Below are positions 12,556 to 47,314 of a DNA stretch of 64,000 nucleotides, in pieces (within the stretch, counting starts at the first letter, position 1; every line of letters starts with the position of its first letter). Source of the DNA: a virus (lineage: Duplodnaviria > Caudoviricetes). The notes beneath the pieces are model-generated. The model had not been told where the DNA came from. It saw nothing but the letters and a program-made list of their open reading frames with translations, and made no database searches. Made by a program: the position numbers and the translations under genes. The stretch spans positions 1-64,000 of the IMG/VR virus record IMGVR_UViG_2918987250_000001. One strand, written 5' to 3'.

Positions 12556-12720
12556 TCACTCAGGCACGAGCTCGGCGCGCATGCCGTGCTCCACGATGAA
12601 GACGGCGAGGCGGTTCTCATCGAACCGCAGCCCGAGGGACGCGACGAACGCCGCGACCCCGAGCAGGGGACGGACCCACCAGCGACGGTGGACCTGGACC
12701 CGGTAGTAGGTCTGCGCCAC
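12556..12720 (-). CDS. Small hypothetical protein
   Basis: GTG start overlapping the RNR stop; about 54 aa. Confidence 0.5.
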   Translation of the reverse strand: MAQTYYRVQVHRRWWVRPLLGVAAFVASLGLRFDENRLAVFIVEHGMRAELVPE

Positions 12721-15254
12721 TAGGCGGCCTTCTCGTCGCTGTTGAAGTCGATCGGGCAGCCACCGCTCCCGCAATCGACGTGCTCGAAGCCGATCTCCTC
12801 CTTCACCGCGTTGTCGTTCGCGATGGCCGAGGCGATCTTCTCGAACTCCAGCTTCGTCACCGGCTGTTCGGGCTGATACTCGTAGGCCGTGGTGTCGGCC
12901 TGCGGCATCACCGAGCAGCAGCGGATCGAGAACTGGCCCTCGATCAGGGTCTCGAGGAAGTCACTGTAGGCGACCTTCTTCGGGTCATACTTCAGCGTGT
13001 AGGAGACCTGGTTGCCGGACTCCTCGAGCGGCGTGACGCCGTCCTCCTCGACACCGCGGATCCAATACTTCTCCAGGAGGCGCAGGAACTCATACTGCTC
13101 CTCCGGGGTCGCCTCGGCCGCGGTCACGACCCACTTGCCGTCACCCAGCTCACAGATCGCGGGCTTGGTCGGGAAGCCGACGATGGTGGTGCCGGAGTAG
13201 GTCTTGAGACGCTTCACCGGGTAGCCCTTCTCCTCGTAGACGGCCACGAGGGGATCGTCGTTGCGGAACTGCACCCAGCGCAGGAACTCACGCATGGACG
13301 GCAGATGCGCGCCCTCGGTGAGGCCGAACAGCTTCGAGGTGGTCCCGGCCGGCTTGAACGTGGTGTTCGTGTGCGGGACGGTCACGCCGAGCAGCTCGGA
13401 GAACTCGCGCGCCTCCTCCACGATGGCACGCTTGAAGCGCGACAGCGTGAGCCACATGGCCTTGGACTTCTCCTCGTCCACGATGTCGTGCCAGGTGAAG
13501 CCGAAGCGGTTGTAGGCCCACTCGTGGAAGCCGGTGATGCCGACGCCGATGCGGTTGGTGCGCTTCACCTCGCGACCGTAGAGGCAGTCCATCGTGTTCG
13601 TGCGGATCAGCGCACGGGTCGCGACGCGGAAGGCGTCCTCGGCATCGTCATCGTTGGCGGCGTGGAACGGCACCACGTCAGCGATGACGCAGTATGCGCC
13701 GAGCATCAGCAGGCAGATCTCCCCGCACGGGTTCGTAATCATCGGCCAGCCCAAGCGGGCGCAGGCCACGACCAGCGACTTCATCAGCGGCAGGGTCTCG
13801 GGGTCGAGCTTGAACTTGGCGCTCTCGGCGATGAGACCGTCGAGGTAGGCGTCGAGCCCGTCCGGCTTGTGCGTCAGGCGGTCCTGGTTGATGAAGCCCG
13901 GCTCGCCCGTGCCGTCGTGATAGGCGGCGTGAGCAGCAGCACGGAGCACCCGGTAGGCGTGCGCCTCGTCCTTGGTGACGCGAGCGAAGAACCCGAACAC
14001 CCGGCCCTTCGTCAGCGCTTCGAGCTTCGCCTCGAGGATCGGGCCGTCCTGGAGATGGCCGACCAGCGGATGCAGCTTGCGCACCGCGGCCCGGAACTCC
14101 TCGTCGATCGTCACCGAGTTGTTCGACGACCAGAGGAAGCCACCGCGCTTGATGCCGATGAAGTCCAGGACCGTGCGGTCCTTCCAGAACTTCGTCGCCA
14201 TGCGGGCAGCGCGACGAGCGCCACCCACGAGCACGCACTCGGCGGCGTAGTGGTCGGCGTAGAGGGCCGCGAGCCACGGCGCCATGCCGGCGTCACGGAT
14301 CTTGGCGATCGAGGCGATGGCGCCCATCAGCGGACCCGGACCCGAGGCCGGCCGGCCCTGCATCCCGGCGATCGGAGCACCGTTCGGGCGCACGTCGGTG
14401 AACTCGAGGATCAGGACTTCCTCGCGACGCTTCTCGAAGGCGAAGCGCTCGATGATCTCGACGGCCTTGGCCCAACCCTCGCGGGAATCCGGCACCCGGA
14501 ACGTCGTGATCTTGCGGCCCTGGTAGAGGTGGCGCGCGTCACGCTCCGTCAGGAAGCCGGTGATCTTGCCCGAGGCCACGTCGTCGTGGCTCCAGTCGAT
14601 GACCGGCACGACGATCGGCATGTCGTTGAGGTCGGCGCGGATCATCGCGTCGGAGTAGTCGCGACCGACGCCCGAGCCGTTGAGCAGCAGGTAGAACAGG
14701 AGGAAGGTCGTCGCGGACGTGGAGCAGTTCGTGAACACCTCCATGTTGCGGTCGCCCTGGGTGGCGTCGCCGTGCTGAAGGTGCCGACCCGACATCAGGA
14801 TCGAGGCCTGACGCAGGTGGTGATGCATCGCCGAGAACTCCTCGGTGAAGATGCGGTTGGTCTCGCCGTCGAACATCGCCTCGACCGGGTCCAGGTGAGC
14901 CGGCTTCAGACGCGGATCGAGCGAGGCGTTCCCCATCGCGACGCGATAGGCGACATCGGCCCATTCCTCGGTCACGACGACGTGGGGCGGGATGAACCAG
15001 CCGGAGACGGTTTCATCGTCGCCGTGGTCCACATGGTATTCGGACGGGTTGCCGTAGCCGGACGCCTTGGCGAAGGCCGCGACCTGGCTGTCGAGGCTCG
15101 TGGTGTCGTCGCGGGCGATCTTGAAGGTGACGACGGCCTCGGCCGTGTAGGGCTTGTTGATCTTGCGGTTGACGGTGCGGTCGGCGACCGCCTGCCCCAT
15201 GCCGGGGAAGTAGGAGCGAGCCGGCGTCAGCGACTCGGGGAAAAGACCAGCCAT
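12720..15254 (-). CDS. nrdJ: Class II (B12-dependent) ribonucleotide reductase
   Basis: FTNCS, GEPG, TNPCGEI, KPAGTTS and C-terminal CGSGGCP; no beta subunit nearby. Confidence 0.88.
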   Translation of the reverse strand: MAGLFPESLTPARSYFPGMGQAVADRTVNRKINKPYTAEAVVTFKIARDDTTSLDSQVAAFAKASGYGNPSEYHVDHGDDETVSGWFIPPHVVVTEEWADVAYRVAMGNASLDPRLKPAHLDPVEAMFDGETNRIFTEEFSAMHHHLRQASILMSGRHLQHGDATQGDRNMEVFTNCSTSATTFLLFYLLLNGSGVGRDYSDAMIRADLNDMPIVVPVIDWSHDDVASGKITGFLTERDARHLYQGRKITTFRVPDSREGWAKAVEIIERFAFEKRREEVLILEFTDVRPNGAPIAGMQGRPASGPGPLMGAIASIAKIRDAGMAPWLAALYADHYAAECVLVGGARRAARMATKFWKDRTVLDFIGIKRGGFLWSSNNSVTIDEEFRAAVRKLHPLVGHLQDGPILEAKLEALTKGRVFGFFARVTKDEAHAYRVLRAAAHAAYHDGTGEPGFINQDRLTHKPDGLDAYLDGLIAESAKFKLDPETLPLMKSLVVACARLGWPMITNPCGEICLLMLGAYCVIADVVPFHAANDDDAEDAFRVATRALIRTNTMDCLYGREVKRTNRIGVGITGFHEWAYNRFGFTWHDIVDEEKSKAMWLTLSRFKRAIVEEAREFSELLGVTVPHTNTTFKPAGTTSKLFGLTEGAHLPSMREFLRWVQFRNDDPLVAVYEEKGYPVKRLKTYSGTTIVGFPTKPAICELGDGKWVVTAAEATPEEQYEFLRLLEKYWIRGVEEDGVTPLEESGNQVSYTLKYDPKKVAYSDFLETLIEGQFSIRCCSVMPQADTTAYEYQPEQPVTKLEFEKIASAIANDNAVKEEIGFEHVDCGSGGCPIDFNSDEKAA

Positions 15255-15291: not shown

Positions 15292-15309
15292 TAAGTCAGC
15301 GCTGACTTA
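15292..15309. promoter_or_regulatory. 18-bp perfect palindrome
   Basis: TAAGTCAGCGCTGACTTA. Confidence 0.9.
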
Positions 15310-15332
15310 CCAGACTGGACAAACGCAGACGG

Positions 15333-15902
15333 CTATGCCGCCAGCGCCCGCGGCCTCCAGACGGAGAGGAGACGGCGAAATTCGTCGGTGAGCACGCCGG
15401 CCTCGGCGACCGCGATGGCGTCGGCCAAGTGCTCGTTCTTGGCGATCAGCGCGCCGTTCGGGTTGTTGCGCGCCCGCAGCCAGGTCGGGTGCGGATACTT
15501 CTCGACCGCCCAGTCGATCATCTGCTGCTTCGAGGCGGACTTGCCGAGGCCGGTCACGTCCTTGGTCTCGAGCGGCATGACCTGCACGATGGGCGTGGGC
15601 GAGCCGCCGAGGATGCCGCAGACGATGCCGAAGGCGCGGGCCGCCTTGGCGTCCTGGGCGCCCGAGGGGATCTCGGAAAACACCAGGGTCCGGCCGACGG
15701 CCGCCTTGTGGAACGCCTTGTAGAGCTTGGTCGAGCGCACGAGGTCGTCGGAGGTGACGCGGGCCTGCTTGACCTTCGTCTTCTCGGTCTCGGTGAGGAT
15801 CAGCTCCTCCAGCTCGAGCTCGAGGGTGTCGGTGTCGAGCAGCATCTTCGCCATGCCCCAGGCGGTGAAGCTCGGGTCGCACGAAAGGATCGGGATCTTC
15901 AT
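15333..15902 (-). CDS. ruvC: RuvC-like Holliday junction resolvase
   Basis: ILSCDPS..WG, SE, ASKQQM, EHLADAIA; start reassigned. Confidence 0.8.
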   Translation of the reverse strand: MKIPILSCDPSFTAWGMAKMLLDTDTLELELEELILTETEKTKVKQARVTSDDLVRSTKLYKAFHKAAVGRTLVFSEIPSGAQDAKAARAFGIVCGILGGSPTPIVQVMPLETKDVTGLGKSASKQQMIDWAVEKYPHPTWLRARNNPNGALIAKNEHLADAIAVAEAGVLTDEFRRLLSVWRPRALAA

Positions 15903-16213
15903 GACCATGTGCCCCATTCGGGGCTCTCCAGTTCGGGCGCCTCGGGCGCCGTGGGTGAAAGGGTGATCGGCACGCCCATGTCCTCGCCGGCGTCGTGATG
16001 CTGGCGCCAGCCGGGTGTGGTCGTCGTGTCGGTGAGCTGGACGAAGGTGCGCCGCTCGGTGACGACGTAGGAAGACACGCCGCCGTAGGGTGAGGTGTGC
16101 TCCTGGGTGTCCGTCTCGATCGCGACCTCGACCACGGTGCCCTCGAGGAGCGTGCCGTCTTCGAGTTCGATGCGGGCGATGCCCGACGTGCGGAATCTGT
16201 CGCGCGTCACCAC
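15899..16213 (-). CDS. Hypothetical protein with C-terminal WGTW tag
   Basis: Ends ESPEWGTWS. Confidence 0.7.
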   Translation of the reverse strand: MVTRDRFRTSGIARIELEDGTLLEGTVVEVAIETDTQEHTSPYGGVSSYVVTERRTFVQLTDTTTTPGWRQHHDAGEDMGVPITLSPTAPEAPELESPEWGTWS

Positions 16214-16833
16214 GTCCCCCAGAGCGGGTTGGTGGCTGCGTCGAGCTCGTCCTCACGCGCCCGCGCCTCGGCTGCTTTCGCCCGACGCTCCTGCACGATG
16301 TGCTGGATGCGGTGAGCGTAGCGATCCTCGACCTCGTCCTGTCGCTTGCGCACCGCGTCCGTGTATTCGACGATCGCCAGGCTATCCCGGCCGTCGAGGC
16401 GCATCCACGGACGCTCCTCGTTGAGCGGGGAGGGGGTCCAGACGAACGCACCCTTGCGCATCACCATCGTCTGCTCGTTGCCGAAGGTGAAATGGCGATG
16501 CCGAACGACGGTGTCGTCGAAGGCGATGTTGCCGCCCTGGAGCTGGATCGGAGCGACGATCGCCGGCCGGGGCAGCTTCACCGCGCCGACCTCGGACGCG
16601 AACACGAAGTCGATCGACAGGATGCGGAAGCAATCCGTCGGCGCGGATTTCATCGTTCCCGGCTCAACGAGGCCGATGTCCTCGATGTAGCGCTCGATCC
16701 GCGCCTCGAACCAGAGCCCGTTCAGCTTGAACAGGCGCCGGGGATCGGGCGCTGAGCCGCGGATGCGCTGCGGCGTCCCGTAGAACACGCAGTCGTGCCC
16801 GAGGGCCGCTTGGAACTCCTCGCAGAGCCTCAC
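16207..16833 (-). CDS. Hypothetical protein with C-terminal WGTW tag
   Basis: Ends ATNPLWGTW; GTGA-coupled start. Confidence 0.75.
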   Translation of the reverse strand: MRLCEEFQAALGHDCVFYGTPQRIRGSAPDPRRLFKLNGLWFEARIERYIEDIGLVEPGTMKSAPTDCFRILSIDFVFASEVGAVKLPRPAIVAPIQLQGGNIAFDDTVVRHRHFTFGNEQTMVMRKGAFVWTPSPLNEERPWMRLDGRDSLAIVEYTDAVRKRQDEVEDRYAHRIQHIVQERRAKAAEARAREDELDAATNPLWGTW

Positions 16834-17357
16834 CAGGTTCCCCACATCGGGTTGTCGGCGTAGGCGTCGGCCTGCGAGCGCTTGGCGTCGGCTTCGCGCT
16901 TGAGCTCCAAGGCGGCGAGCAGCTCGGGCATCGCGGCCCGGAAGGTGCCAACGGCGCTCGCCAGCGAGGCGTTGGAGGCGATGAAGGGCGCGTCCAGGTC
17001 CTCGAGCTCGGCGTCTGCCTGCGCCTTCGCGAGGTAGGTCGCGAGCGCATTCACGAACGCGCTCTCGGTCTCGCCGAAGAGGTGCAGCTTGGCGCCGTCC
17101 AGCTCGGCGTGGAGATAATCGACCGTGTCCATCGCGGTCATCTGAGCGATGACCTGGCCGCGGCCGCCGAGGCGAACGCCGGTGAGGAGGAACTCCTCGA
17201 CGCCCTTGAACTTCATCGTCTTGAACGGCCGGTTCGGGTCGTTGTAGGCGACCGGCAAGCTCATCGGTCCGGGCAACTGCATCAGGCGGCTGTCGCAGAC
17301 CGGAGCCAGCGCCGCGATGATGTGGCCGTTGGTATCGAGTTCCTTCGTCATCCCCAT
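16830..17357 (-). CDS. Hypothetical protein with C-terminal WGTW tag
   Basis: Ends ADNPMWGTW. Confidence 0.8.
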   Translation of the reverse strand: MGMTKELDTNGHIIAALAPVCDSRLMQLPGPMSLPVAYNDPNRPFKTMKFKGVEEFLLTGVRLGGRGQVIAQMTAMDTVDYLHAELDGAKLHLFGETESAFVNALATYLAKAQADAELEDLDAPFIASNASLASAVGTFRAAMPELLAALELKREADAKRSQADAYADNPMWGTW

Positions 17358-17361: not shown

Positions 17362-17379
17362 TGAGTAAGCGCTGACTTA
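17362..17379. promoter_or_regulatory. 18-bp palindromic site
   Basis: TGAGTAAGCGCTGACTTA; a GCTATA -10-like element lies at 17385-17390. Confidence 0.8.
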
Positions 17380-17595
17380 TGCGTTATAGCGAGGTTCGAT
17401 CGCTCTTTCGCACCTTTTCAGGTCGGCCTTCGTGTTGAGGATCGAGCGATGATCGGATGGCGTGGTCGCCGAAATGACGACCGCGCCGGTGGCGATGAAG
17501 ATCCAGCGGAGGTGGCAGCCCTTGGTCTGCTCGACCTTCCAGCCCTCCTTCTTCTTCTGGCGCACGAGCGCCCTCATGTCCCCGCGCAGGCTCAT
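17377..17595 (-). CDS. HicA-like small basic protein
   Basis: GWKVEQTKGCHLRW...V..TPSD pattern; 72 aa. Confidence 0.55.
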   Translation of the reverse strand: MSLRGDMRALVRQKKKEGWKVEQTKGCHLRWIFIATGAVVISATTPSDHRSILNTKADLKRCERAIEPRYNA

Positions 17596-17867
17596 GACAC
17601 CCGGACCCCGAGCTCCGCGAGCTTGCCCGTGAGGGAGCAATCCTGCTCGTTGAGGTGCGTCTCGAAGGCGGCGAGCAAGTCACCCAGGAGACCGCCGCGG
17701 TCGCCCTGCTTCATCTCGAGGGTGCCGCCGTCGGCGTCGAAGCGGATATGGACGTGATCGAAGGAGGTGCGATTGCTCTTCAACACATCCAGCTTGTCGC
17801 GGATCCACTTACGCTGCTGGGTGAGGCTGCGGATTTCCTCAATCTGCTTTTCCGTTAACTCGATCAC
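17592..17867 (-). CDS. Hypothetical protein
   Basis: 91 aa, coupled. Confidence 0.7.
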   Translation of the reverse strand: MIELTEKQIEEIRSLTQQRKWIRDKLDVLKSNRTSFDHVHIRFDADGGTLEMKQGDRGGLLGDLLAAFETHLNEQDCSLTGKLAELGVRVS

Positions 17868-19804
17868 GCGAATACCTCCTCGATCTTGGACGCGCCGCGT
17901 CCGGTCTTCGTGACCTTCATGACCTGGGGCACCCAGTCCTTGAGGTCCGAATGGCTGATGATGAAGACGGTCCCGCGCTCGCGGGCCTTCTCCTGCAGGA
18001 TGGTGGTGAGCCGCTCGATGCCGGCGCTATCGAGGGCGTTGTCGATCTCGTCGCCGATGAAGAGCGGGATCGTCTTCGAGGCGCGGGAGGCCACGAGGTC
18101 CTGGAGCGCGAGCGCTGCCGCGACCCGCACCTTGCGCTTCTCGCCGCCGGAGATGGCCTTGAACTTGTCGCCGCCGAGCGCGTGCGTGACCTCGATGGAG
18201 AACTTCTCCTTCAGCTCGCCCTTCGCGCTGCGGGTGAGCGTGGACCAGCTCGCCCGGATGTTGCCGTCGGAGAGCGTGCCGAGATACTTCGCCGTCTGGG
18301 CGTTGAGGTAGGGCGTGACCTCGTCCAGCATCTCCGCCCGCGCGCCGGCCGGGGCGAACACCTCGCAGACCTCCCTGGCGATCTCGAGCTCGAGGGCCTG
18401 GGCGCGCTCGGCGGCCTGCGCCTCGATCATCACCTCGTTGGTCCGCTCCACGGCCTCGGAGCAGCGCGCCTGGATCGCCTCGTGCGGGTTGGGCTGCGCC
18501 TGGGACCTCTTGATCTGCTCACCCAACGTCCGCGCCCGCTCGACGATCTGGTCGATCTCCCGCTGCCGGCGATCCAGGTCCACCAGGGATGCTCTCAGAC
18601 GCGCGCACAGCGCGTGCGTCGCGCTTGCGTCAGTCATAGACGCACGATGCGTTTCGACCGCTGAGCGCGCGATTTCGAGCGCTGCAACAGCGTTCGCGTG
18701 ATCGCTCTTCACGTCGCGCAACGTGACGAGTTCAGCACGCAGCGCGCTTGCAGCGTTGGCCTTGGCAGGAGCGATGTCCGCGGCCGTGTAGGGCTTGTCG
18801 CACGAGGAGCACGGGCAGCCGACCTTGTGATCCAGGCCGTCGTGATCCGCCTTCAGACGCCGGGCGCGGGCGCTGATGGTGTCGATCGAGTGCTGATGCC
18901 CATCCACGAGGCGCTGGGCGAGGGTGAGCTCGTGGCTGAGCCGGCGCTCCTCCGTGACCTCACCCGCGAGGCCGGCGAGCTTGGCTTCCTCGGCGGCGAG
19001 CTGCGCCTCGACGGCCGGACGGTTCTCGGTGGCGAGCTCGCCCCGCTTCACCTTCACGACGCCGACGAGGTTGCGGACCTCGTCCGTGAGCCGCTCGATT
19101 TCTCCCTTGCGATCCCGCTCCCAGGCGTTCAGGTCCTCGCCGGCCTGGTCAAGGGCGCCGACGGCGTCATCGAACCGACCCACGGCGACATCCGCGGTCA
19201 TCTTCGCCTTGTCGAGCGCGGCCTTCGCCTCGTTGAGCTGCGTGAGGGCGACCCGGTGGCCCTTCTCCAGGACCGTCGTGCCGGCGGCCTCCTCGACGAT
19301 GACCTTGAGGTTCTTGTCCGTCATGCCCGGCAGGTCGGGCATCTGATCCTGGCCGGCGAGCACGGCGGCGATGAACACCTCGCGCGAGCAGCCGATGATC
19401 TCGTTGACGACGGTCTGGGTGAGCTTGTCGGTGCCGAGCGTGAGATCGTGGGTCTCGCCGTCCGGGTCCACCATCGTCACGAGGAGCCGGTTCTTAGCCG
19501 TCTTGTGCTTGCGGTGCCGGGCGATGGTGTAGGTGTTGCCGCCGTCCTCGACGCGGGTGGCGACACGGGTGCCCTTCTTGGCCGCCCAGTTGATGACATC
19601 GTCGCCCGAAACCTCGCGGCTCGTCTCGTCGTAGAGGCACCAGAACACGCCGTCGGCGAAGGTGCTCTTGCCGGCCCCGTTGGAGTCGGCCGAGCTGTCG
19701 CAGAGGTTCTCGCCCTGCACGAGCACGAGCCCGCGCTCATTCATCGTCACCTTCGCCTGCGCGATGGTGAGGAAGTTCTCGATCTCAACGTCGAGGATCT
19801 TCAC
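17864..19804 (-). CDS. sbcC: SbcC/Rad50/gp46-like ATPase
   Basis: SNGAGKST, coiled coil with CSSC zinc hook, ISGGE signature, DE, ISH. Confidence 0.92.
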   Translation of the reverse strand: MKILDVEIENFLTIAQAKVTMNERGLVLVQGENLCDSSADSNGAGKSTFADGVFWCLYDETSREVSGDDVINWAAKKGTRVATRVEDGGNTYTIARHRKHKTAKNRLLVTMVDPDGETHDLTLGTDKLTQTVVNEIIGCSREVFIAAVLAGQDQMPDLPGMTDKNLKVIVEEAAGTTVLEKGHRVALTQLNEAKAALDKAKMTADVAVGRFDDAVGALDQAGEDLNAWERDRKGEIERLTDEVRNLVGVVKVKRGELATENRPAVEAQLAAEEAKLAGLAGEVTEERRLSHELTLAQRLVDGHQHSIDTISARARRLKADHDGLDHKVGCPCSSCDKPYTAADIAPAKANAASALRAELVTLRDVKSDHANAVAALEIARSAVETHRASMTDASATHALCARLRASLVDLDRRQREIDQIVERARTLGEQIKRSQAQPNPHEAIQARCSEAVERTNEVMIEAQAAERAQALELEIAREVCEVFAPAGARAEMLDEVTPYLNAQTAKYLGTLSDGNIRASWSTLTRSAKGELKEKFSIEVTHALGGDKFKAISGGEKRKVRVAAALALQDLVASRASKTIPLFIGDEIDNALDSAGIERLTTILQEKARERGTVFIISHSDLKDWVPQVMKVTKTGRGASKIEEVFA

Positions 19805-23290: not shown

Positions 23291-24397
23291 TCAGGCGGCT
23301 TCCTGGATCGGCTCGGCCTCGGACTCGCCGTTGAGCTCAGCCTCGGCGACGACCGGCGGCTCGTAGGCCTTCGGCAGCAGCGCGTGCAGCTCGGCGAGCG
23401 CCTTGTTGGCCTCGATGCGCCGGGCGAGCTGCTCCTTGTGGATCGCCTTGCCGTCCCAGAGCACGCGACCGGCGCCCTTGTCCTCGAGCAGCTTCTCGGC
23501 GACCAGGAACTCGATCAGCGAGCGCTCCACGTCGAACTTGCCGAAGCCGTCCTCCTGGAAGATGAAGCGCCAGGACGCGCGCAGGAACGGCCGCGAGACC
23601 TTGTTCTTGGCGACGACGCCCGAGACCTCGACGCCCAGGATCTCGGCGTTCTCGCCGGTGCCCTTCTGGATCTTCGAGGCCGCGCCGAGCATGAGCTTCT
23701 GCGTGTCGTAGAAGTAGGGGCTCTCGCCGCCCGGCGTCTTGCGCGGGTCGCCGTAGACCACGCCGATCTTCATGCGGATCTGGTTCGTGAAGATCGCCGA
23801 GATGCCGAACTCCTCGATGTAGAGGTTGAAGGTCGGAAGGTGAGCCGACGTGGCACGGGCGAGCGCCGTGTTGTCGTTCATGTTCCGGTCCGTCATGTCC
23901 CGGTCCTTCTTGGTCTTCATGTCCATCAGAGCGGACTGCGGGACCATCGAGGCGAGGGAGTCGAACACGAAGCAGATCGGCGCCTCGGGCGCGATGAGCT
24001 TCTGCTTGCGGATCAGCTCACCGGCGCGGACGGCCATCGTCAGGCTATCCTCGAAGGTGCGCGGCTTCTTGTAGATGAACTTGCCGGGCGTCACATCGAG
24101 GCCGATCCGCTTCGCCAGGGCGCCCGAGAACGAGCGCTCGTGATCGAAGAAGCCGGCGATGCCGCCCATCGCCTGCGCGGCGATCATGGCGCGGGTCGCG
24201 ATGGCCGTCTTACCGGACGTGGACGGGCCGGCGATCTCGACCTGACGCCCGACGGCGATGCCGCCATCCCAGCGCGAGGAGAGGGCGTAGTTGAGCGGGG
24301 CGTAGCCGGTGTCGAGGAACTGGCTGACGGTCGCCTCCTCGTCGTTGGCGCCGATCAGCCCTGCGAGGTGCTTCGCGATGTCAGATGCGCTTGCCAT
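23291..24397 (-). CDS. recA: RecA/UvsX-like recombinase
   Basis: GPSTSGKT, FDSLASM, FTNQIRMKIGVVYGDP.KTPGG, KNKV; start at ATG 24397. Confidence 0.93.
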   Translation of the reverse strand: MASASDIAKHLAGLIGANDEEATVSQFLDTGYAPLNYALSSRWDGGIAVGRQVEIAGPSTSGKTAIATRAMIAAQAMGGIAGFFDHERSFSGALAKRIGLDVTPGKFIYKKPRTFEDSLTMAVRAGELIRKQKLIAPEAPICFVFDSLASMVPQSALMDMKTKKDRDMTDRNMNDNTALARATSAHLPTFNLYIEEFGISAIFTNQIRMKIGVVYGDPRKTPGGESPYFYDTQKLMLGAASKIQKGTGENAEILGVEVSGVVAKNKVSRPFLRASWRFIFQEDGFGKFDVERSLIEFLVAEKLLEDKGAGRVLWDGKAIHKEQLARRIEANKALAELHALLPKAYEPPVVAEAELNGESEAEPIQEAA

Positions 24398-24900
24398 TAC
24401 TCGTCGTTCTCCACGTCGGTCGGGTTGTTGTCCTCGTCCTCGTCGAGGAAGAGGGCGTCGTCGTCGGCCGCGGGCTCGGCCGGGGTTTCGGGGCGCCGGC
24501 GAGCCTCGCTGACGAAGCGGCCGCCGAGGTCGTTCACGCTCGGGCCGCGCGGGGCGGCCGGGGCAGGGGAGCCGGGCAGGGCGATCAGCGGCACCACGGC
24601 CGGGGCTGCGATGCCGGCCAGCGCCGGCAGGTCCTTGGCGAGCGAGAAGTCCGAGAGACCGGCCGCCTGGACCGATGCGAGCGCCTTCTGCTGCGCGGCG
24701 CTGCCGGCGAGCGCGAGGAAGCTGAACGCCTTCTCGACCTCGGACGCCTTGAGCTTCACGCCCTCGCGCTCCACGAGCTTCACGAGCGCGGTGATGGAGC
24801 GACCGACGCCCGCGACGGCCGCCTCGAGCTTCTGCTGCGGGTTGCGTCCACGCACGCCGCGCGCGGGGACCTTCTTCTTCGTGGTTGCCTTCGTGGTCAT
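24397..24900 (-). CDS. Hypothetical protein (basic N-terminus, acidic C-terminus)
   Basis: 167 aa, coupled to both neighbours. Confidence 0.7.
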   Translation of the reverse strand: MTTKATTKKKVPARGVRGRNPQQKLEAAVAGVGRSITALVKLVEREGVKLKASEVEKAFSFLALAGSAAQQKALASVQAAGLSDFSLAKDLPALAGIAAPAVVPLIALPGSPAPAAPRGPSVNDLGGRFVSEARRRPETPAEPAADDDALFLDEDEDNNPTDVENDE

Positions 24901-25937
24901 GCTGCCTTCCGTAAGTCAGTGCTGACTTCACTCAGGGCGCGAAACGGCTCGAGCCAGCCATCCACGTCGCTGAGGATCTGGTTGAAGAGGAGATCGGAGC
25001 ACTGGTCGCGCACCGCCTCGGGGTTGAACTCGCCCGGCGTCAGGCGCGGCCGGAGCGGCGCCGGGATGTCGGGGTGGTGGAGATCCATCAGCCGCAGGTT
25101 GCGGTAGAAGATGTCCCGCTTCTCCGGCGAGGAGCAGAAGTCGGCGAGCTTCTTCGGCACCTTGGCCTTGTGGATCTCGACCGCGTCGAAGAAGCCCTTC
25201 ACCGTGCCGAAGGCCCGGACCAGGTCGAACGCGCCCTTGTCTCCGATGCCGCCGACACCGCAGATCTCGTCGGAGCCGTCGCCCATCAGCGCCTTGACCT
25301 CGAGATAGGCCTGCGGCGAGGGGCAGCCGCGCCACTCGATGTCCTCGATGAGGGTCGAGCCGTCCGCCTGCTTGGTCTTCTTCTGCTTCATGTAGCCGAC
25401 CTCCTTCTCGAAGGTCTGCGCCGTGATGCGCTTCTTCTGCACGGGCGCGTGCCAGGCCACGCCGGGCTGCACGAGCTGGAGCCAGTCCTTGTCGCCCGAG
25501 ATCAGGAGGATCTTGTGCCCCTTGGCCGCCAGGTCCGGCTGGTAGCGGCGCACGAGGATGCCGGCCCAGTCGTCGGCCTCGAGGTTGGCAGCCGAGAGCT
25601 GGTGGACGCCGCAGGCCTTGAGGAGCTGGAAGGCGAGGGGCTTCTGCGTGCGCCAGCTTTCGCGGATGCGCGCCTGCTCGATTTCGTAGGGCTTGGGCGC
25701 TTCCTTCACGGCGTCGCGCGAGCCCTTGTAGCCGTCGATCTCCTTCTTGCGCCACGAGTCGCCGTCCCAGAGGATCAGCGGCCGGAGCTGCGGGTAGGTC
25801 TCCACCATCTTCTTGATGGCGCGGATGACGCCGAGCGCGCCCTGCGTCTCCTGCTCGCCCACCTTGAGCACCCGCGTGCTCGTGGCGGCGAAGCCGATGT
25901 TATTAATATCAATCAAGAGGTGTCCGCGGTGCGTCAC
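24897..25937 (-). CDS. 5'-3' exonuclease/flap endonuclease (Pol I N-terminal / T4 RNase H-like)
   Basis: LLID, YKGSR, EADD, SGDKD, GDGSD..GVGGIG. Confidence 0.92.
   Translation of the reverse strand: MTHRGHLLIDINNIGFAATSTRVLKVGEQETQGALGVIRAIKKMVETYPQLRPLILWDGDSWRKKEIDGYKGSRDAVKEAPKPYEIEQARIRESWRTQKPLAFQLLKACGVHQLSAANLEADDWAGILVRRYQPDLAAKGHKILLISGDKDWLQLVQPGVAWHAPVQKKRITAQTFEKEVGYMKQKKTKQADGSTLIEDIEWRGCPSPQAYLEVKALMGDGSDEICGVGGIGDKGAFDLVRAFGTVKGFFDAVEIHKAKVPKKLADFCSSPEKRDIFYRNLRLMDLHHPDIPAPLRPRLTPGEFNPEAVRDQCSDLLFNQILSDVDGWLEPFRALSEVSTDLRKAA
24912..24929. promoter_or_regulatory. 18-bp palindromic site (gene 3' end)
   Basis: TAAGTCAGTGCTGACTTC. Confidence 0.8.
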
Positions 25938-28004: not shown

Positions 28005-28616
28005 TCAGGGCGTCGCCATCGTCTCGGCAGCTTCCGCCGCGGCCGAGCGGCCGAACCGGGCCGCGACGCGATCACGGGCAGACATGCCGGCCTGCTCCTG
28101 CTCGCGCTTGACCGCCATCGACAGCTCGCCGGCCCGCTCCTGACGGTCGGTGGCGCCGGCCTGGACGAGCATGTCCTTGCGGTGCCGGAACGCCTCGAGG
28201 GTGGTCTTGGCGACGGCCTCGATCTGCTTGGCCTCGTTCAGGGCACGCTTGAAGGCGACGACCTGCGGGTGCCGGGTGATGCGGCGCTCTACGATGCCTT
28301 CCGTGACCTTCTCGCCGAGCAGCGCCATGCGGGTGCGGATCTCGCGATCCACCTTCGCCTCGGTGTTCTCGATGAGGATCTTGATGTCATCGACCTGCTT
28401 CGAGGCCTTGGCCGCGAGCACGCCGTAGTAGGAGAACAGACCCGCCTGCTCAGCCATCGCCTCGGAGAGGCCGTTGGGCGAGTAGTTGAGCTTCGCCTTG
28501 AGGTCCTCCTCGGCGAGGAAGTCCTTCACCTTGAACTTGCGCACGATCACCGGCGGCTCGGGCGGCACGGTCGGAGGCGCGCTCGGCGCCTCCTCCGTCG
28601 TGGTGTCCTTCGCCAC
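28005..28616 (-). CDS. UvsY-like recombination mediator (helical)
   Basis: Helical pattern ...KVTEGIVE...LEAFRHRKDML; near SSB and RecA. Confidence 0.55.
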   Translation of the reverse strand: MAKDTTTEEAPSAPPTVPPEPPVIVRKFKVKDFLAEEDLKAKLNYSPNGLSEAMAEQAGLFSYYGVLAAKASKQVDDIKILIENTEAKVDREIRTRMALLGEKVTEGIVERRITRHPQVVAFKRALNEAKQIEAVAKTTLEAFRHRKDMLVQAGATDRQERAGELSMAVKREQEQAGMSARDRVAARFGRSAAAEAAETMATP

Positions 28617-28621
28617 CGAGA

Positions 28622-42807: not shown

Positions 42808-42825
42808 TAAGTCAACACTGACTTA
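42808..42825. promoter_or_regulatory. 18-bp palindromic site overlapping ligase stop
   Basis: TAAGTCAACACTGACTTA. Confidence 0.85.
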
Positions 42826-44241
42826 CGCAGCCACGCGCAAATTTTCGTCCTTGTCGTCGCGGAAGCGGACGAAGCGCGGGTGCCGGAGCGAGCCGTCGGG
42901 CGTCACCTCGTGGAACTCGACCTCGCACAGCCGGAACGGGGTGAGGAAGCGGCGCCGGACCTTGCCGTTGACCGTCCAGGGTTCGCCGGCCGGCATCTTG
43001 CGGACCTCGGCATCCCAGAACGCCAGCTCGTCGTGCTTGTAGCCGCCGCCGACGGCGACCACGACCATCTCGCCGTTGTGCTCGCGCTCGACCAGGAAGC
43101 CCGCGAACTTGTCCTCGAGCGCACGGCCGGGCTCGCCGGTCTGCCAGCCGATGATGCGCAGGTCCTCGGTCTCCTCGGCCTTGATCTTCTGCCAGATGTG
43201 ACCCTTCTTCCGCACGTAGTGACCCTCGAGAGGCTTCACCATCGCGCCCTCGAGCTTGTTGCTCCGGTGCTCGTTGTAGACCTCGATGATCTCCTCGTGG
43301 CTGTTGATCTCGCGGAAGTCGGTGAGCCGGATCGGGGCGCCCTCGGGGGCGTGGGCGACGATGAACTTGAGGAACTTGCGCCGCACGCGCAGCGGCACCT
43401 TCCACTCGATCTGCGTCGGGTCGCGCATGAAGGCGTAGGGCACGGCGTCGAAAAGGTAGAGCAGCGCGTCCTTCGCCTCGTTGCCCTTGCGGCGCAGCTC
43501 GCCCGAGGTCTCGGCGTAGGAGCGCGTCATCATCTCGCCGTCGAGCGCGCAGCTCGGGCCGTCCTCGCCGCCGAGCCAGCGGTAGAAGTGCTCGGCCGGG
43601 CCGGAGCCGGCCACGAACAGGTTGTAGGCCTTGTCGTGCGCAGCCGCGACCATGTCGGCGAGGTAGGGGCCGGCCCAGTCGAGCTGCGGGAAGTGGTTGC
43701 CGACCCGCGAGAACGCCTTCGACACGCCGCCGGTGACGAGGCTCATGCCGCGGAATCCATCGAGCTTGGGCTCGACCGCGACCGGGAAGACCTTGATGCG
43801 CTTCTCCTCGTAGGCCCTGGAGAGCATCAGGTCGAAGGTCGGCACCGTGTTCGGCAGGACGCCGTTGATCGTCTTCTCGGAGATGCCGCAGCGCAGGTCC
43901 TTTGCCAGGATGCGCCAGAGCACCTGGGCGGCCGGGCCGTTGAACTCGGCGAAGAGCTTGTCCACTGCGGCCTTGGCCGCGTTGCCCGTCAGCTCGCGCG
44001 CCTTGAGCTTGTGCAGCGTGATCCAGGGCTCGGCCGTCTCCAGGTCGAAGGCCAGCTCGCCGGCGACCTTGGGCGGCTTGGGCGGCGTGATGCCGAAGGT
44101 GACGAACGGGTCGTAGGCGAGCCGCACGGTCTCCTTCACGAGCGGGTCGTCGATGTGCTGCCGGAGCAGATCCTCCTTGGCGTTGCGCGAGCTCGTCGCC
44201 GCGATCTGCTCGAGGAGGGTGAAAACGTCGAACGAGTTCAC
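42823..44241 (-). CDS. lig: ATP-dependent DNA ligase
   Basis: EPKLDGFR, LDGE, EGAMVK, SLRHPRFVRFR. Confidence 0.93.
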   Translation of the reverse strand: MNSFDVFTLLEQIAATSSRNAKEDLLRQHIDDPLVKETVRLAYDPFVTFGITPPKPPKVAGELAFDLETAEPWITLHKLKARELTGNAAKAAVDKLFAEFNGPAAQVLWRILAKDLRCGISEKTINGVLPNTVPTFDLMLSRAYEEKRIKVFPVAVEPKLDGFRGMSLVTGGVSKAFSRVGNHFPQLDWAGPYLADMVAAAHDKAYNLFVAGSGPAEHFYRWLGGEDGPSCALDGEMMTRSYAETSGELRRKGNEAKDALLYLFDAVPYAFMRDPTQIEWKVPLRVRRKFLKFIVAHAPEGAPIRLTDFREINSHEEIIEVYNEHRSNKLEGAMVKPLEGHYVRKKGHIWQKIKAEETEDLRIIGWQTGEPGRALEDKFAGFLVEREHNGEMVVVAVGGGYKHDELAFWDAEVRKMPAGEPWTVNGKVRRRFLTPFRLCEVEFHEVTPDGSLRHPRFVRFRDDKDENLRVAA

Positions 44242-45071: not shown

Positions 45072-45296
45072 CTACCAGGATCCCCAGGTATCATTGACCG
45101 CGAGCTCGGCGTTCAGGGCGGCCTCTTCGGCCTCCTGCTGAGCGAGCACGGCGGATCGGTTGTGAAGGAGGGTGACGAGCTGACGCTGCGGCTCGCGCAG
45201 CGCGACGATGACTTCGGCGCGCGCCATCGAGGTTAGCGCCTCGAGAAGAGGCGGCATCCAGCGGCGCGTGTTGGGAACGGTGATCGCCTCCCTCAC
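45072..45296 (-). CDS. Small protein with C-terminal WGSW tag
   Basis: GTGA-coupled start; ends AVNDTWGSW. Confidence 0.65.
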   Translation of the reverse strand: MREAITVPNTRRWMPPLLEALTSMARAEVIVALREPQRQLVTLLHNRSAVLAQQEAEEAALNAELAVNDTWGSW

Positions 45297-45820
45297 CACG
45301 ATCCCCAGTTCGGGTTGGCTGCGACTTCTTCCTCGACCGTCGGCGCGGCCGGATCGACGAAATCCTTGAAGACGTGCTTGGGCTGGTAGCCCTTGCGGAC
45401 GACCTTGCCGTCGCGATCGAACTCGGGGACCGGGTCGGGCTCCTTGACGCCGGACACGTCGAGATCGGGGGCGACGTGCAGCAGGTTCGCGGCGCCCATG
45501 TTGAAGCGCAGGTGAGGCCCGAGCGCCTTGGCGAACTCGGCCGCGTTGGCGCACTCGATGAGGTTGTCGCGGCCCGCGTCGTGCTCGTAGCCGCCGCGGT
45601 GGCTGCGCTTCTCGCTGTCCTTCATCTCGAAGGAGGTGACAGCCATTTCCGAGCGCTCGAAGGTCTCGACCTTCATTTGCCCGGTGGTGTTCTTCTTGCC
45701 CCAGCGCTGGACGAGAACGGCCCGGCCCTCGCCGTTCACGATGAGGACCTGGTGGTATTCCTTGGTGCCCTGTCGATGCAGCATCGACTTCTTGCGGATC
45801 GCGATCGGGTAGACCGTCAT
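45293..45820 (-). CDS. WGR-domain protein with C-terminal WGSW tag
   Basis: KEY...VLVQRWGK...GQ....F....A...F.....K....GY; ends AANPNWGSW. Confidence 0.75.
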   Translation of the reverse strand: MTVYPIAIRKKSMLHRQGTKEYHQVLIVNGEGRAVLVQRWGKKNTTGQMKVETFERSEMAVTSFEMKDSEKRSHRGGYEHDAGRDNLIECANAAEFAKALGPHLRFNMGAANLLHVAPDLDVSGVKEPDPVPEFDRDGKVVRKGYQPKHVFKDFVDPAAPTVEEEVAANPNWGSW

Positions 45821-45865
45821 GGCTCCTCTCTGTGTCTGTGTGCGCGTCAGTCGCTACAACGTGAC

Positions 45866-45887
45866 TATAGCGAACGCTTCTCGGGAT
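45866..45887 (-). promoter_or_regulatory. Promoter-like variant ATCCCG-N10-GCTATA
   Basis: One mismatch to consensus. Confidence 0.7.
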
Positions 45888-45888
45888 G

Positions 45889-45906: not shown

Positions 45907-45911
45907 TTCGT

Positions 45912-47045
45912 CTAGGCAGCTTCGAGGGTCTTCTGCCGGCGCAGCGCGGTGTAGGGGTTGCGCAGGCGCCATTCGACGGCGAGGCGCGAAGAGAACTCCT
46001 GCGCCTCCCAGATCGCGCGGCGCACGACCGCGGGCTTGGCATCGTTCGGGTCCTGGTCGAGCGGCAGCAGGGCGACGCGCGCCTTGAGGCCGATCTTGCG
46101 AATGGACTCGGCCGTCTTCGTCGCGGCGACCAGCGCGTCGGGCGTTCCGTCCCAGCAGATGATGACCTCCTCGAGCCCGTAGCTCTTGAGGATGAGGAGC
46201 TGGCCGAGCTGGTCCTTACCCTCGAGGTCGCCGGTGGAGAGGTGCTTGCCGAAGGACCCGACCGGCACGATGTCGCGCAGGTCGCTCTCCTCGTCGAGCG
46301 CCGCCTTGAGCGAGAACACGTCGAAGGCGCCCTCCCCCATCACGATCCGGCGCGCCCGCACCGCGTTCTGGCCGTTGAAGAGGAAGCGCCCGGTGCCCGG
46401 CAGCGCGGGTGGGAAGAGGTATTTCGGCTCCTGCGTGCCGATCACGTCGCGGCCCTGGAAGGTCACGAGCGTCCCGTCGAGGTCGTAGACCGGGATGATG
46501 AGACGCTGCTCCCACTTCTGGCCGCCGCGCTTGCCGTCGTCCTTGGTCCAGTTCCACCAGCCGTCATCGCAGTAGCGCAGGTGGAAATAGGCCGCGAGCT
46601 CGGGGCTGATGCCGCGATCGGCCAGATACTTGAGCGTCTGACCCTCGGGCGTCGGCAGCGCGAAGCTGTCGGGCAGCTTGATCTCGCCCGGCTCCACGAT
46701 CGCGGCCGTCGTGGTTCGTTTCGGGCGCCAGCCCTGGTCCACGCAAGCCTGCTTGACGTGCTTGAGGGTGTCGCCCCACTTCGCCGCGTTCTTGTCGCCG
46801 TGCAGATAGGCGTTGATGAAGTTGAGCTTGGTGAAGGTCGTGTCGCACACGAAGCACTTCCCCAGGCCGGAATCCGCGTTGAGGTAGACGCGGTAGCGGC
46901 TGTCCCGGCAGTGGTCCTGCGGGCAGTCGCGGCAGTTGATCTGCATGCCGCTCGAGCCTCGTGTGGGGCCGCGGTAGGCAAGCCCCTCGCGGTCGAACCA
47001 CTGTTCGAGGTCGAGCTCCTCGGCGAGCTCCTGGAAGTCGCTCAT
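45912..47045 (-). CDS. dnaG: DNA primase (Zn ribbon + TOPRIM)
   Basis: CPQDHC...CFVC, YL..RGI, EGAFD, WD, DPND; start at ATG 47045. Confidence 0.9.
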   Translation of the reverse strand: MSDFQELAEELDLEQWFDREGLAYRGPTRGSSGMQINCRDCPQDHCRDSRYRVYLNADSGLGKCFVCDTTFTKLNFINAYLHGDKNAAKWGDTLKHVKQACVDQGWRPKRTTTAAIVEPGEIKLPDSFALPTPEGQTLKYLADRGISPELAAYFHLRYCDDGWWNWTKDDGKRGGQKWEQRLIIPVYDLDGTLVTFQGRDVIGTQEPKYLFPPALPGTGRFLFNGQNAVRARRIVMGEGAFDVFSLKAALDEESDLRDIVPVGSFGKHLSTGDLEGKDQLGQLLILKSYGLEEVIICWDGTPDALVAATKTAESIRKIGLKARVALLPLDQDPNDAKPAVVRRAIWEAQEFSSRLAVEWRLRNPYTALRRQKTLEAA

Positions 47046-47314
47046 ACGAGGCTCGCGATGTCGAGGACGCTCTCGAGGCGGGTTTCGAGCGTCTTGATCC
47101 GATCCTTCGCCAAGTCCAGCTCGATCTGGCGCCGGCACTGAAGCTCCTGGTATTCATTGAGATCGACCGAGTTCGCCTCGCGCCAGGCAAGCCCGAGCTG
47201 GTTCTGGTCGATCGGCACCTCGTGCTCGACCATGAGCGCCATCACCGGCCGCGGCGGCGTGAACCACCGGCGCTGGGTGTAGCGAATCTCGAAACGGTAG
47301 CGTCCGGTCTTCAC
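47042..47314 (-). CDS. Hypothetical protein
   Basis: GTG start coupled to upstream stop; about 90 aa. Confidence 0.6.
   Translation of the reverse strand: MKTGRYRFEIRYTQRRWFTPPRPVMALMVEHEVPIDQNQLGLAWREANSVDLNEYQELQCRRQIELDLAKDRIKTLETRLESVLDIASLV

What the first reader, a model, noticed from the sequence alone, without database searches (positions are those of the whole stretch)
15899..17357. Shared C-terminal NPxWG[ST]W tag on unrelated proteins (cluster 1): candidate new targeting system
Seen: three consecutive genes with no visible similarity elsewhere end in ADNPMWGTW* (16830), ATNPLWGTW* (16207) and ESPEWGTWS* (15899). Two more genes 28 kb away end in AANPNWGSW* and AVNDTWGSW*. The tag usually follows an Ala/Glu-rich, probably helical spacer. 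The Gly and Ser/Thr codons differ between copies (GGA-ACC, GGG-ACG, GGC-ACA, GGA-TCG, GGA-TCC), which favours selection on the peptide rather than on DNA. Inference: a docking signal read by one common partner. Candidates are the CobS/CobT-like AAA+/vWA machine in this window, a capsid-loading factor for injected proteins, or a replisome or host hub. Each cluster begins just after an 18-bp site and a GCTATA element.
Basis: partly seen in the sequence, partly recalled or inferred. Interest (0 to 1): 0.9.

Follow-up and report, generated by a model that had tools for sequence, protein, structure and literature searches.

The report
Private aromatic end-tag of SSU5-like phages
A whole group of ~110-kb phages related to Salmonella phage SSU5 ends 2 to 10 unrelated early and DNA-replication proteins per genome with the same short peptide (two aromatic residues around a glycine at the very C-terminus). 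Its wording changes in step within each phage lineage, so it looks like an undescribed docking label read by one partner that is still unidentified.

Summary
The window belongs to a 117.5-kb phage. WG[ST]W occurs 7 times in its six reading frames, and 6 of these end minus-strand genes. The sixth tagged gene has no co-directional gene downstream, so the tag is not a Shine-Dalgarno or start-overlap by-product.

The same tag, consensus Y-x-x-N-P-x-aromatic-G-x-aromatic-COOH, ends 130 ORFs in 26 related genomes. These include the cultured phages SSU5, Cyrano, pJN2-26, RHEph10, V1VFA-S and nickie. In all 26 genomes a tagged gene follows SbcC, and in 22 one follows the primase. Only one tagged ORF lies in a structural block.

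Each lineage has its own wording (WG[ST]W, WATW, WG[MLI]F, FGRF, FGAF, FGxWA). Orthologs change wording with the lineage. In the family of the 16830-17357 gene, 145 of 149 cluster representatives keep the tag.

My reading is a docking peptide read by one co-evolving receptor, probably phage-encoded. I found no support for CobS/CobT. The scan has noted analogous but different private tags in other phage groups, not this one.

The parts
16830..17357 (-). T1, 175 aa, ends DAYADNPMWGTW*. Founding member of the 'post-SbcC' family: small beta barrel, helices, then a long helix and a free tail.
   Evidence: ORF. AF2 model pLDDT 94, helix 132-167 then tail. Family of 41 in IMG/VR loci. 756 cluster representatives, and 145 of the best 149 keep the tag. 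No PDB fold match.
16833..16853 (-). Tag of T1 (NPMWGTW).
16207..16845 (-). T2, 212 aa, ends ATNPLWGTW*. GTG start overlaps the T1 stop. Beta-rich domain with a conserved HRH motif, then a 48-residue helix and tail.
   Evidence: Six homologs of 41-53% identity all end NPLWGSW. AF2 pLDDT 77. No PDB match.
16210..16230 (-). Tag of T2 (NPLWGTW).
15899..16213 (-). T3, 104 aa, ends ESPEWGTWS* with one extra residue after the tag. Small beta domain plus a Pro/Glu-rich linker. Its stop overlaps the start of the RuvC-like gene.
15902..15925 (-). Tag of T3 (SPEWGTWS).
45293..45820 (-). T4, 175 aa, WGR-domain protein directly after the primase, ends AANPNWGSW*.
   Evidence: Pfam WGR E=3.8e-7, 30.6 bits against a cut-off of 22. 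Ten homologs, including one from Methylobacterium oryzae, keep W-G-x-[WF]. Orthologs in G002, RHEph10 and V1VFA-S carry those lineages' wordings.
45296..45316 (-). Tag of T4 (NPNWGSW).
45072..45296 (-). T5, 74 aa, helical, ends AVNDTWGSW*. Stop is TAG and the next gene starts 2 nt later, with no GTGA overlap.
45075..45095 (-). Tag of T5 (NDTWGSW).
17864..19804 (-). Context: SbcC-like ATPase. A tagged gene lies within 3.5 kb downstream in 26 of 26 related genomes.
15307..15903 (-). Context: RuvC-like nuclease that closes the SbcC-[tagged genes]-RuvC-RNR slot.
   Evidence: synteny with the SSU5 and Cyrano annotation
45912..47138 (-). Context: DnaG-like primase. A tagged gene lies within 1.5 kb downstream in 22 of 26 genomes.
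42823..44241 (-). Context: ATP-dependent DNA ligase that closes the primase-[tagged genes]-ligase slot.

Best explanation
The peptide (Y-x-x)-N-P-x-aromatic-G-x-aromatic-COOH is a portable docking label (a short linear motif). Each carrier has three parts: an unrelated globular payload, a helical or acidic spacer that Asn-Pro terminates, and a short exposed tail. In that tail two aromatic side chains sit three residues apart around an invariant glycine, within one residue of the free C-terminus. I propose that the two aromatics plug into a double hydrophobic pocket of one common receptor, and that this gathers 2-10 accessory proteins per phage on it. The wording is uniform within a genome but differs between lineages, even between phages of the same host genus, so the receptor most likely co-evolves with the tags and is phage-encoded. 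Tagged genes always sit behind SbcC and the primase and almost never in the late operon. The hub is therefore most likely part of the replication/recombination machinery of these phages, which have a DnaE polymerase but no recognisable sliding clamp. Shown: the motif, its terminal position, its conservation, the concerted change of wording, the gene positions, and the exposed tail in models. Inferred: that it binds a protein, that there is one receptor, that the receptor is phage-encoded, and which machine it belongs to.
For: (1) Specificity. Six of 7 WG[ST]W in all six frames of the genome are ORF ends. 130 tagged ORFs occur in 26 genomes. (2) Selection on the peptide. The tag is kept from 46% to 66% GC with free third codon positions. 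(3) The tag outlasts its carrier. In the T1 family (mean identity 18%) the tag Gly is the only invariant column. Of 149 representatives that are under 50% identical to each other, 145 end in aromatic-G-x-aromatic, with Gly in 145 of 145, Pro at -6 in 112 and Tyr at -10 in 101. T2 and T4 homologs keep it too. (4) About 40 BLAST-unrelated carrier families exist. (5) Concerted wording per genome: G000 6x WG[ST]W, G010 7x WG[IMLV]F, RHEph10 6x [FY]GRF plus 1x FGMF, SSU5 and pJN2-26 2x WATW each. Wordings are clade-specific on the SbcC tree. Orthologs of the WGR protein read ANPNWGSW, INRNWGTW, GNPRFGMF and VNELYGRF in four lineages. (6) Two Rhizobium phages differ (FG[AGT]F against FGRF), as do the enterobacterial Cyrano (WG[ST]W) and SSU5 (WATW). 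This argues against a conserved host receptor. (7) Position: after SbcC in 26/26 genomes, after the primase in 22/26, and 1 of 130 in a structural block. (8) AF2 models put the tag after a long helix as a non-helical tail. (9) No beta clamp or gp45 clamp was found in the genome.
Against: Covariation between tag wording and 33 core proteins singled out no receptor. Only 4 independent W/F switches exist, so the test cannot reach significance. The tail of T1 has moderately high pLDDT (about 81), so it might fold back on its own domain. A degradation signal would leave the same sequence signature.
Confidence: 0.6

Rival explanations
1. It is a docking label, but the reader is a host protein such as the beta sliding clamp, SSB, RNA polymerase or a chaperone, which the phage hijacks.
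For: The phage has a DnaE-type polymerase and no clamp of its own, so it must use host factors. C-terminal hydrophobic tails are the usual way to bind clamps (review PMC9690074).
Against: Wordings differ between phages of one host genus (V1VFA-S against RHEph10 on Rhizobium) and between close enterobacterial relatives (WATW against WGTW), while the candidate host hubs are nearly identical there. The motif does not resemble the QL[SD]LF clamp motif or the DDDIPF SSB tail. That comparison rests on my own knowledge of those motifs.
Confidence: 0.12
2. It is a degradation or remodelling tag: a C-terminal degron read by a host AAA+ protease (ClpXP, Lon, FtsH), or by the phage CobS/CobT MoxR-VWA pair, to time the life of early proteins.
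For: It is strictly C-terminal, exposed and aromatic, sits on early and middle proteins, and follows a flexible or helical spacer, as with ssrA-type tags. CobS/CobT are hallmark genes of the same phage group.
Against: Known degrons are looser. Here Gly is invariant and N-P and Tyr(-10) are conserved over 12 residues, which is more typical of a fitted pocket. The lineage-specific wording argues against conserved host proteases. Phage CRP-810 has CobS/CobT but no tags. Nothing links the tag to CobS/CobT beyond co-occurrence in one phage group.
Confidence: 0.1
3. It is a capsid-targeting (cargo-loading) signal that packs these proteins into the head for injection into the next host.
For: C-terminal loading peptides after flexible linkers are how encapsulins, which share the HK97 fold, load cargo. 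T4 loads internal proteins by a terminal signal. Both points are from my own knowledge. Many carriers are small accessory proteins.
Against: Tagged genes lie in the early and replication regions, fixed behind SbcC and the primase, and only 1 of 130 lies in a structural block. One carrier has a WGR (nucleic-acid-binding) domain.
Confidence: 0.06
4. There is no dedicated receptor. The aromatic tails act as mutual 'stickers', or bind the carriers' own beta domains or the membrane, and so cluster the proteins in a replication compartment.
For: The tail has two aromatic residues on an acidic, flexible tail. The T1 tail has fairly high pLDDT. There is a weak, non-significant resemblance of the T1 barrel to CAP-Gly/SH3-like barrels, some of which read C-terminal aromatic tails (Z 4.4).
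Against: The invariant Gly, the N-P and the concerted lineage-specific wording are hard to explain without a fitted pocket. The payload domains are unrelated.
Confidence: 0.05
5. It is a by-product of translational coupling: a TGGGG Shine-Dalgarno sequence plus a GTGA or ATGA stop-start overlap for the next gene.
For: In the window, 3 of 5 tags overlap the next start codon, and TGGGG lies 5-8 nt upstream.
Against: The sixth tag ends 4 nt from a convergent gene. T5 ends in TAG with a separate ATG. Enterobacterial copies are followed by their own AGGAG. F-type tags (TTYGGN...TTY) contain no GGGG, and many have no adjacent gene. The tag is kept at 46-66% GC.
Confidence: 0.01

Closest known systems
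Clamp-binding tails: bacterial beta-clamp motif QL[SD]LF, and the hydrophobic C-terminal tails by which T4 polymerase, gp33 and gp55 bind the gp45 clamp (review PMC9690074 for clamps as a 'tool-belt'; T4 details from my own knowledge)
   Same: A short hydrophobic or aromatic peptide, usually at the extreme C-terminus after a flexible spacer, is shared by many unrelated DNA-metabolism proteins and read by one hub.
   Different: The sequence differs: N-P-x-aromatic-G-x-aromatic with an invariant Gly and no Gln. No clamp gene is detectable in the phage. The wording is private to each phage lineage.
SSB C-terminal tail (acidic, ends ...DDDIPF) and the acidic Phe-ended tails of T7 gp2.5 and gp4 (my own knowledge)
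   Same: An acidic spacer plus a terminal aromatic residue whose position at the chain end matters. It is used in replication and recombination.
   Different: There, one hub protein carries the tail and many partners have pockets. Here many proteins carry the tail. The phage's own gp32-like SSB ends in a different conserved tail, D-x-L-L-x-x-L-D.
BRC-type FxxA motifs that dock several proteins on Rad51 (my own knowledge)
   Same: One aromatic-anchored short motif on several otherwise unrelated proteins, read by a recombinase. A RecA-like gene lies in the same module. One RecA column (F321 against W) tracks the tag's last residue in 4 lineage switches, with 3 exceptions.
   Different: The motif and its position differ (internal against C-terminal). 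The RecA lead is not significant, and the residue sits in the Walker B strand, probably buried.
Encapsulin cargo-loading peptides and the T4 capsid-targeting sequence (my own knowledge)
   Same: A terminal address peptide after a linker on unrelated cargo proteins of an HK97-fold shell.
   Different: The genes here are early or replication genes, not late ones. No processing site or shell contact is known.
ssrA-type C-terminal degrons (my own knowledge)
   Same: A strictly C-terminal, exposed signal read by one machine.
   Different: The 12-residue conservation and the lineage-specific wording are much stricter than known degrons. No protease link is known.
Other 'private' terminal tags noted by this scan in unrelated phage groups (e1-5679764, e1-5644078, e1-5748696, e1-5339708; AI notes, unchecked)
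   Different: The peptides and phage groups differ. This one occurs in cultured, genetically tractable phages of E. coli, Salmonella, Klebsiella, Pseudomonas and Rhizobium.

Membership tests
SSU5-like phage / phage-plasmid group (for the genome) | ~100-120 kb genome with the conserved block SbcD-SbcC-x-RuvC-RNR, plus DnaE, CobS/CobT, gp32-like SSB, RecA, DnaB, primase and ligase | tested here: met
   Synteny with SSU5 and Cyrano. 31 core proteins are shared with at least 20 of 25 relatives.
Bacterial beta-clamp-binding motif | Consensus Q-L-[SD]-L-F or Q-x-x-L-x-[LF] | tested here: not met
   Position table of 106 unique tails: N at -7, P at -6, aromatic at -4, G at -3, aromatic at -1, and no conserved Gln or Leu. 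The same holds in 145 representatives.
Bacterial beta-clamp-binding motif | Binds the clamp's hydrophobic cleft | not testable with these tools
T4-type gp45 clamp-binding tails | The phage encodes a gp45-like trimeric clamp that reads the tails | tested here: not met
   PF02916 gives no match in the genome at E<=1, and PF02768 (beta clamp) gives none either. A very divergent clamp cannot be excluded.
SSB C-terminal tail | An acidic tip ending in ...IPF, carried by the SSB itself | tested here: not met
   The tag is on non-SSB proteins. The gp32-like SSB (26745-27695) ends in D-x-L-L-x-x-L-D-type tails in all relatives.
Translational-coupling artefact | The tag is present only where a downstream gene is coupled | tested here: not met
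Capsid-targeting / cargo-loading peptide | Carriers are found in virions or are co-expressed with head genes | tested here: inconclusive
   Gene position argues against it, with 1 of 130 in a structural block. No virion proteome or expression data were examined.
C-terminal degron | The tag shortens protein half-life through a protease or unfoldase | not testable with these tools
   This needs an experiment.
WGR domain (for T4, 45293-45820) | Pfam PF05406 above the gathering score | tested here: met
   30.6 bits against a cut-off of 22, E=3.8e-7. Homologs carry PF05406 and the source name 'WGR domain-containing protein'.
Short linear docking motif (general kind) | Short, in an exposed or disordered terminal segment, conserved beyond its flanks, and found on unrelated proteins | tested here: met
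Short linear docking motif (general kind) | Demonstrated binding to a defined partner domain | not testable with these tools
Covariation was underpowered.

The most novel reading that the evidence does not exclude
These phages, which have no recognisable clamp, run a private 'tool-belt'. One phage-encoded hub of the replication/recombination factory (candidates: RecA-like recombinase, gp32-like SSB, SbcCD, DnaE or the CobS/CobT MoxR-VWA pair) reads the aromatic-G-x-aromatic tails and so recruits a changeable set of accessory proteins. The lineage-specific wording would work as an orthogonality code that keeps related co-resident phages or phage-plasmids from using each other's hub.
Probability: 0.3. 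Interest if true: 0.85.

Novelty: new variant of a known kind. Interest (0 to 1): 0.75.

Why it matters
The tag gives a handle on dozens of protein families of unknown function in a widespread phage and phage-plasmid group. SbcC relatives occur on at least 327 IMG/VR stretches, and the T1 family alone has 756 sequence clusters. The group includes elements of E. coli, Salmonella, Klebsiella, Pseudomonas syringae and Rhizobium. It could also assign a role to the puzzling phage CobS/CobT genes, or rule one out. The natural wordings offer ready-made specificity variants for testing co-evolution of a peptide and its pocket, and possibly orthogonal tag/receptor pairs as tools. Cultured members exist, so the question is directly testable.

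Tried and rejected
1. Complex prediction. The job held RecA-like, SSB and the CobT VWA domain against the T1 tail, with alignments A3 and A4 prepared.

2. Covariation of tag wording with receptor candidates. I tested 7 neighbouring proteins in 46 lineages and 33 core proteins in 26 whole genomes. Only 4 independent W/F switches and 2 for the first aromatic exist, so no sign test can reach 0.05. Top columns are scattered over many proteins. Leads only: RecA F321 against W, SbcC K337 against R, RuvC residue 70 (Ala in the Arg-type lineages), and position 261 of the 89357-90223 product.

3. Presence/absence profile. No G000 gene is present in W-type phages and absent from the F-type V1VFA-S.

4. 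CobS/CobT link. Outside the group, CobT occurs in Roseobacter phage CRP-810, which has no tags. This gives no support, and the relative is too distant to be evidence against.

5. Clamp search with PF02768 and PF02916 found nothing.

6. Fold searches of T1 and T2 gave no match: Foldseek E>0.05 and best VIA Z of 4.9. Pfam and PHROGs gave nothing for T1, T2, T3 and T5. PDB sequence searches and the Atlas, run on the unknown core proteins 49320-50045, 28005-28682 and 1288-2100, gave only a weak UvsY lead for 28005-28682.

7. RecA N-terminus. I checked it for a tag-like oligomerisation motif that the tags might mimic and saw none.

8. Literature. I found no paper on this tag.

9. The broad regex [WFY]G.[WF] over six frames is too loose to show enrichment by itself. 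The lineage-specific wordings are what carry the statistics.

10. The Shine-Dalgarno/overlap by-product reading was rejected.
Full report
WHAT IS THERE. The window is the first 64 kb of a 117,522-bp virus record of 66% GC. On the minus strand, three consecutive genes end in ...DNPMWGTW*...TNPLWGTW* and ...SPEWGTWS*. I call them T1 (16830-17357), T2 (16207-16845) and T3 (15899-16213). Two genes 28 kb away, T4 (45293-45820) and T5 (45072-45296), end in ...NPNWGSW* and ...NDTWGSW*. In the six-frame translation of the window, WG[ST]W occurs five times, each time at an ORF end. In the whole genome it occurs seven times, six of them at ORF ends. The sixth carrier, T6 (~114459-114785...DRWRWGSW*, stop TAG), ends 4 nt from a convergent gene. 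Codons for Gly and Ser/Thr differ between copies. With the tails removed, the carriers share no BLAST similarity. T4 has a WGR domain. The others match nothing in Pfam or PHROGs.

NOT A CODING ARTEFACT. That test fails for four reasons. T6 has no co-directional neighbour. T5 ends in TAG with a separate ATG. Enterobacterial copies are followed by their own AGGAG. The Phe-type tags of relatives contain no GGGG at all and often have no adjacent gene.

THE TAG IS A PROPERTY OF A WHOLE PHAGE GROUP. The phage is a relative of Rhizobium phages RHEph10 and V1VFA-S. It is more distantly related to Pseudomonas phage nickie and to the SSU5-type phage-plasmids of enterobacteria. A DNA pattern for NPxWG[ST]W-stop found 68 places in IMG/VR. 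Most lie on 46-50% GC contigs of about 100-115 kb, at the ends of three further unrelated protein families (...ENPIWGTW*...ANPIWGTW*...ENPLWGSW*). Whole-genome scans of 26 related genomes found 130 ORFs that end in aromatic-[GA]-x-aromatic with at most one further residue. The cultured members are SSU5, Cyrano, pJN2-26, RHEph10, V1VFA-S and nickie.

Every genome has its own wording:
- G000, G002, G003, G004 and Cyrano: WG[ST]W
- SSU5 and pJN2-26: WATW, on both carriers
- G005 and G010: WG[MLIV]F
- G016 and V1VFA-S: FG[AGT]F
- RHEph10, G018 and G019: [FY]GRF
- nickie, G012 and G013: FGx[WF] plus one small residue

A few genomes are mixed (G001, G014, G015). On a tree of SbcC the wordings are clade-specific.

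Over 106 unique tails the consensus is Y(-10)-x-x-N(-7)-P(-6)-x-aromatic(-4)-G(-3)-x-aromatic(-1).

By contrast, I examined a sample of 120 matches to the same DNA pattern in the bacterial and archaeal genome collection. It contained 61 with a stop and 11 with an open frame of at least 80 codons. Only one was a real protein end, on a 112,764-bp contig of Magnetospirillum molischianum DSM 120, which is relative G002 itself.

THE TAG OUTLASTS ITS CARRIERS.
- Six T2 homologs of 41-53% identity, one from Methylobacterium sp. B34, all end in NPLWGSW, while the spacer before the tag varies.
- T4 homologs, one from a 116.8-kb Methylobacterium oryzae contig, keep W-G-x-[WF].
- T1 belongs to a very divergent family (mean identity 18% over 41 members) whose only invariant column is the tag glycine.
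- A profile search of 1.84 billion cluster representatives found 756 members of the T1 family. Of the best 149, 145 end in aromatic-G-x-aromatic. Gly is present in 145 of 145, Pro at -6 in 112, Asn at -7 in 96 and Tyr at -10 in 101.
- Orthologs change wording with the lineage. The WGR protein ends ANPNWGSW (G000), INRNWGTW (G002), GNPRFGMF (RHEph10) and VNELYGRF (V1VFA-S).

So the wording is set by the phage lineage, not by the protein family. This is what a shared, co-evolving reader predicts.

WHERE THE CARRIERS SIT AND WHAT THEY LOOK LIKE. Two slots are conserved across the group: SbcD-SbcC-[tagged gene(s)]-RuvC-RNR and primase-[tagged gene(s)]-ligase. A tagged ORF lies within 3.5 kb downstream of SbcC in 26 of 26 genomes, and in 74 of 81 SbcC-centred stretches (80 IMG/VR loci plus this genome). 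One lies within 1.5 kb downstream of the primase in 22 of 26. Only one of 130 lies inside a structural-gene block. The slot proteins of different lineages are often unrelated in sequence, for example SSU5_076 against the G004 protein against T1, yet they keep the tag.

AlphaFold2 models show a small beta barrel plus helices for T1 (pLDDT 94) and a beta-rich domain for T2 (pLDDT 77). Each is followed by a 36-48-residue helix that stops at Asn-Pro and leaves the last 7-8 residues non-helical. Neither fold matches a solved structure.

WHO READS IT? This is not resolved. The genome encodes:
- a DnaE-type polymerase with a fused UDG-like domain
- a RecA-like recombinase (true start probably at 24397)
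- a FEN nuclease
- a gp32-like SSB
- a possible UvsY-like mediator
- SbcCD and a RuvC-like nuclease
- a DnaB-like helicase, a primase and a ligase
- the CobS/CobT (MoxR AAA+/VWA) pair

It has no recognisable sliding clamp.

No gene is present in Trp-type phages and absent from a Phe-type phage. Covariation between wording and protein columns was tried on 7 neighbouring proteins in 46 lineages and on 33 core proteins in 26 genomes. There are only four independent W/F switches, so nothing can reach significance, and the best columns are scattered.

The only column of 2,251 consistent with all four switches is RecA F321, which is F/I/L/V where the tag ends in Trp and Trp where it ends in Phe. It has three exceptions, lies in the Walker B strand, and one such column is about what chance would give. 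CobS/CobT occur without tags in Roseobacter phage CRP-810.

Phages of the same host genus (Rhizobium: FG[AGT]F against FGRF) and close enterobacterial relatives (WATW against WGTW) use different wordings, whereas host hubs would be nearly identical.

MOST LIKELY MECHANISM. The tag is a docking peptide. The spacer holds the tail away from the payload. Asn-Pro ends the helix. The two aromatic side chains, with the glycine allowing a tight turn and the nearby chain end, fit a two-pocket site on one receptor. I put about 0.6 on 'docking label for one co-evolving, phage-encoded reader', most likely in the replication/recombination factory. I put about 0.12 on a host reader, about 0.1 on a degradation or remodelling tag, about 0.06 on capsid loading, about 0.05 on receptor-less clustering, and about 0.01 on an artefact.

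COMPARISON AND NOVELTY. The logic is that of clamp-binding tails (PMC9690074), SSB tails, FxxA motifs, encapsulin loading peptides or ssrA. The sequence matches none of them, the defining partner of each is absent or untested, and I found no description of this tag. Earlier notes of this scan describe analogous private Trp tags in other phage groups, but not this one and not in cultured phages. I class it as a new variant of a known kind (a shared terminal docking motif) with an unknown reader. It is unusually well supported by comparative data and directly testable in E. coli, Salmonella, Pseudomonas and Rhizobium phages.

Noticed in passing
whole genome G000 (window examples: 12720-15254, 15307-15903, 42823-44241, 45912-47138, 23291-24397): 51 of 142 called ORFs end in Ala and 28 end in Ala-Ala, although Ala is 12.1% of residues. 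RecA homologs of many related phages also end in AA. V1VFA-S (42/135) and G002 (41/153) show the same bias. This is a second, commoner C-terminal bias of unknown cause.
   Followed up: partly
window 26745-27695 and homologs: The gp32-like SSB ends in a conserved acidic amphipathic tail (D-x-L-L-x-x-L-D) in all relatives. It is probably the SSB's own partner-docking tail and is distinct from the aromatic tag.
   Followed up: no
window 34290-35504 and homologs: CobS-like AAA+ proteins of the group end in R-[IVY]-F-G, sometimes with a few extra residues.
   Followed up: no
window 29400-32924: The DnaE-type polymerase carries a C-terminal UDG-superfamily domain (residues ~1018-1151). No beta clamp or gp45-like clamp is detectable in the genome.
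   Followed up: partly
window 23291-24931: The longest RecA ORF (546 aa) is probably too long. Homologs align from the Met at 24397 (368 aa).
   Followed up: yes
window 28005-28682: This conserved core protein of unknown function next to the SSB has language-model and structure look-alikes in clusters where 17-32% of members carry Pfam UvsY. It is a possible recombination mediator.
   Followed up: partly
L416 / G002; P0003; P0010: Host hints. Relative G002 is identical in length (112,764 bp) to a contig of Magnetospirillum molischianum DSM 120. Homologs of T2 and T4 come from Methylobacterium sp. B34 and from a 116.8-kb contig of Methylobacterium oryzae, which suggests a Methylobacterium host for this phage.
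   Followed up: partly
window 17362-17400 and 45862-45910: Both tag clusters start behind a GCTATA element and an 18-bp near-palindrome (TAAGTCAG..CT.ACT.A), in opposite order. These belong to the promoter and palindrome classes noted by other readers of this genome.
   Followed up: partly
G015:C1:56017-56343: Eight copies of GGATCGTTTTGA within 330 bp in a related phage, which is a short tandem-like array.
   Followed up: no
window 17377-17595: A small ORF between SbcC and T1 matches PHROG 2089/2053 (unknown function). It and 17592-17867 separate SbcC from the tagged genes only in this lineage.
   Followed up: no
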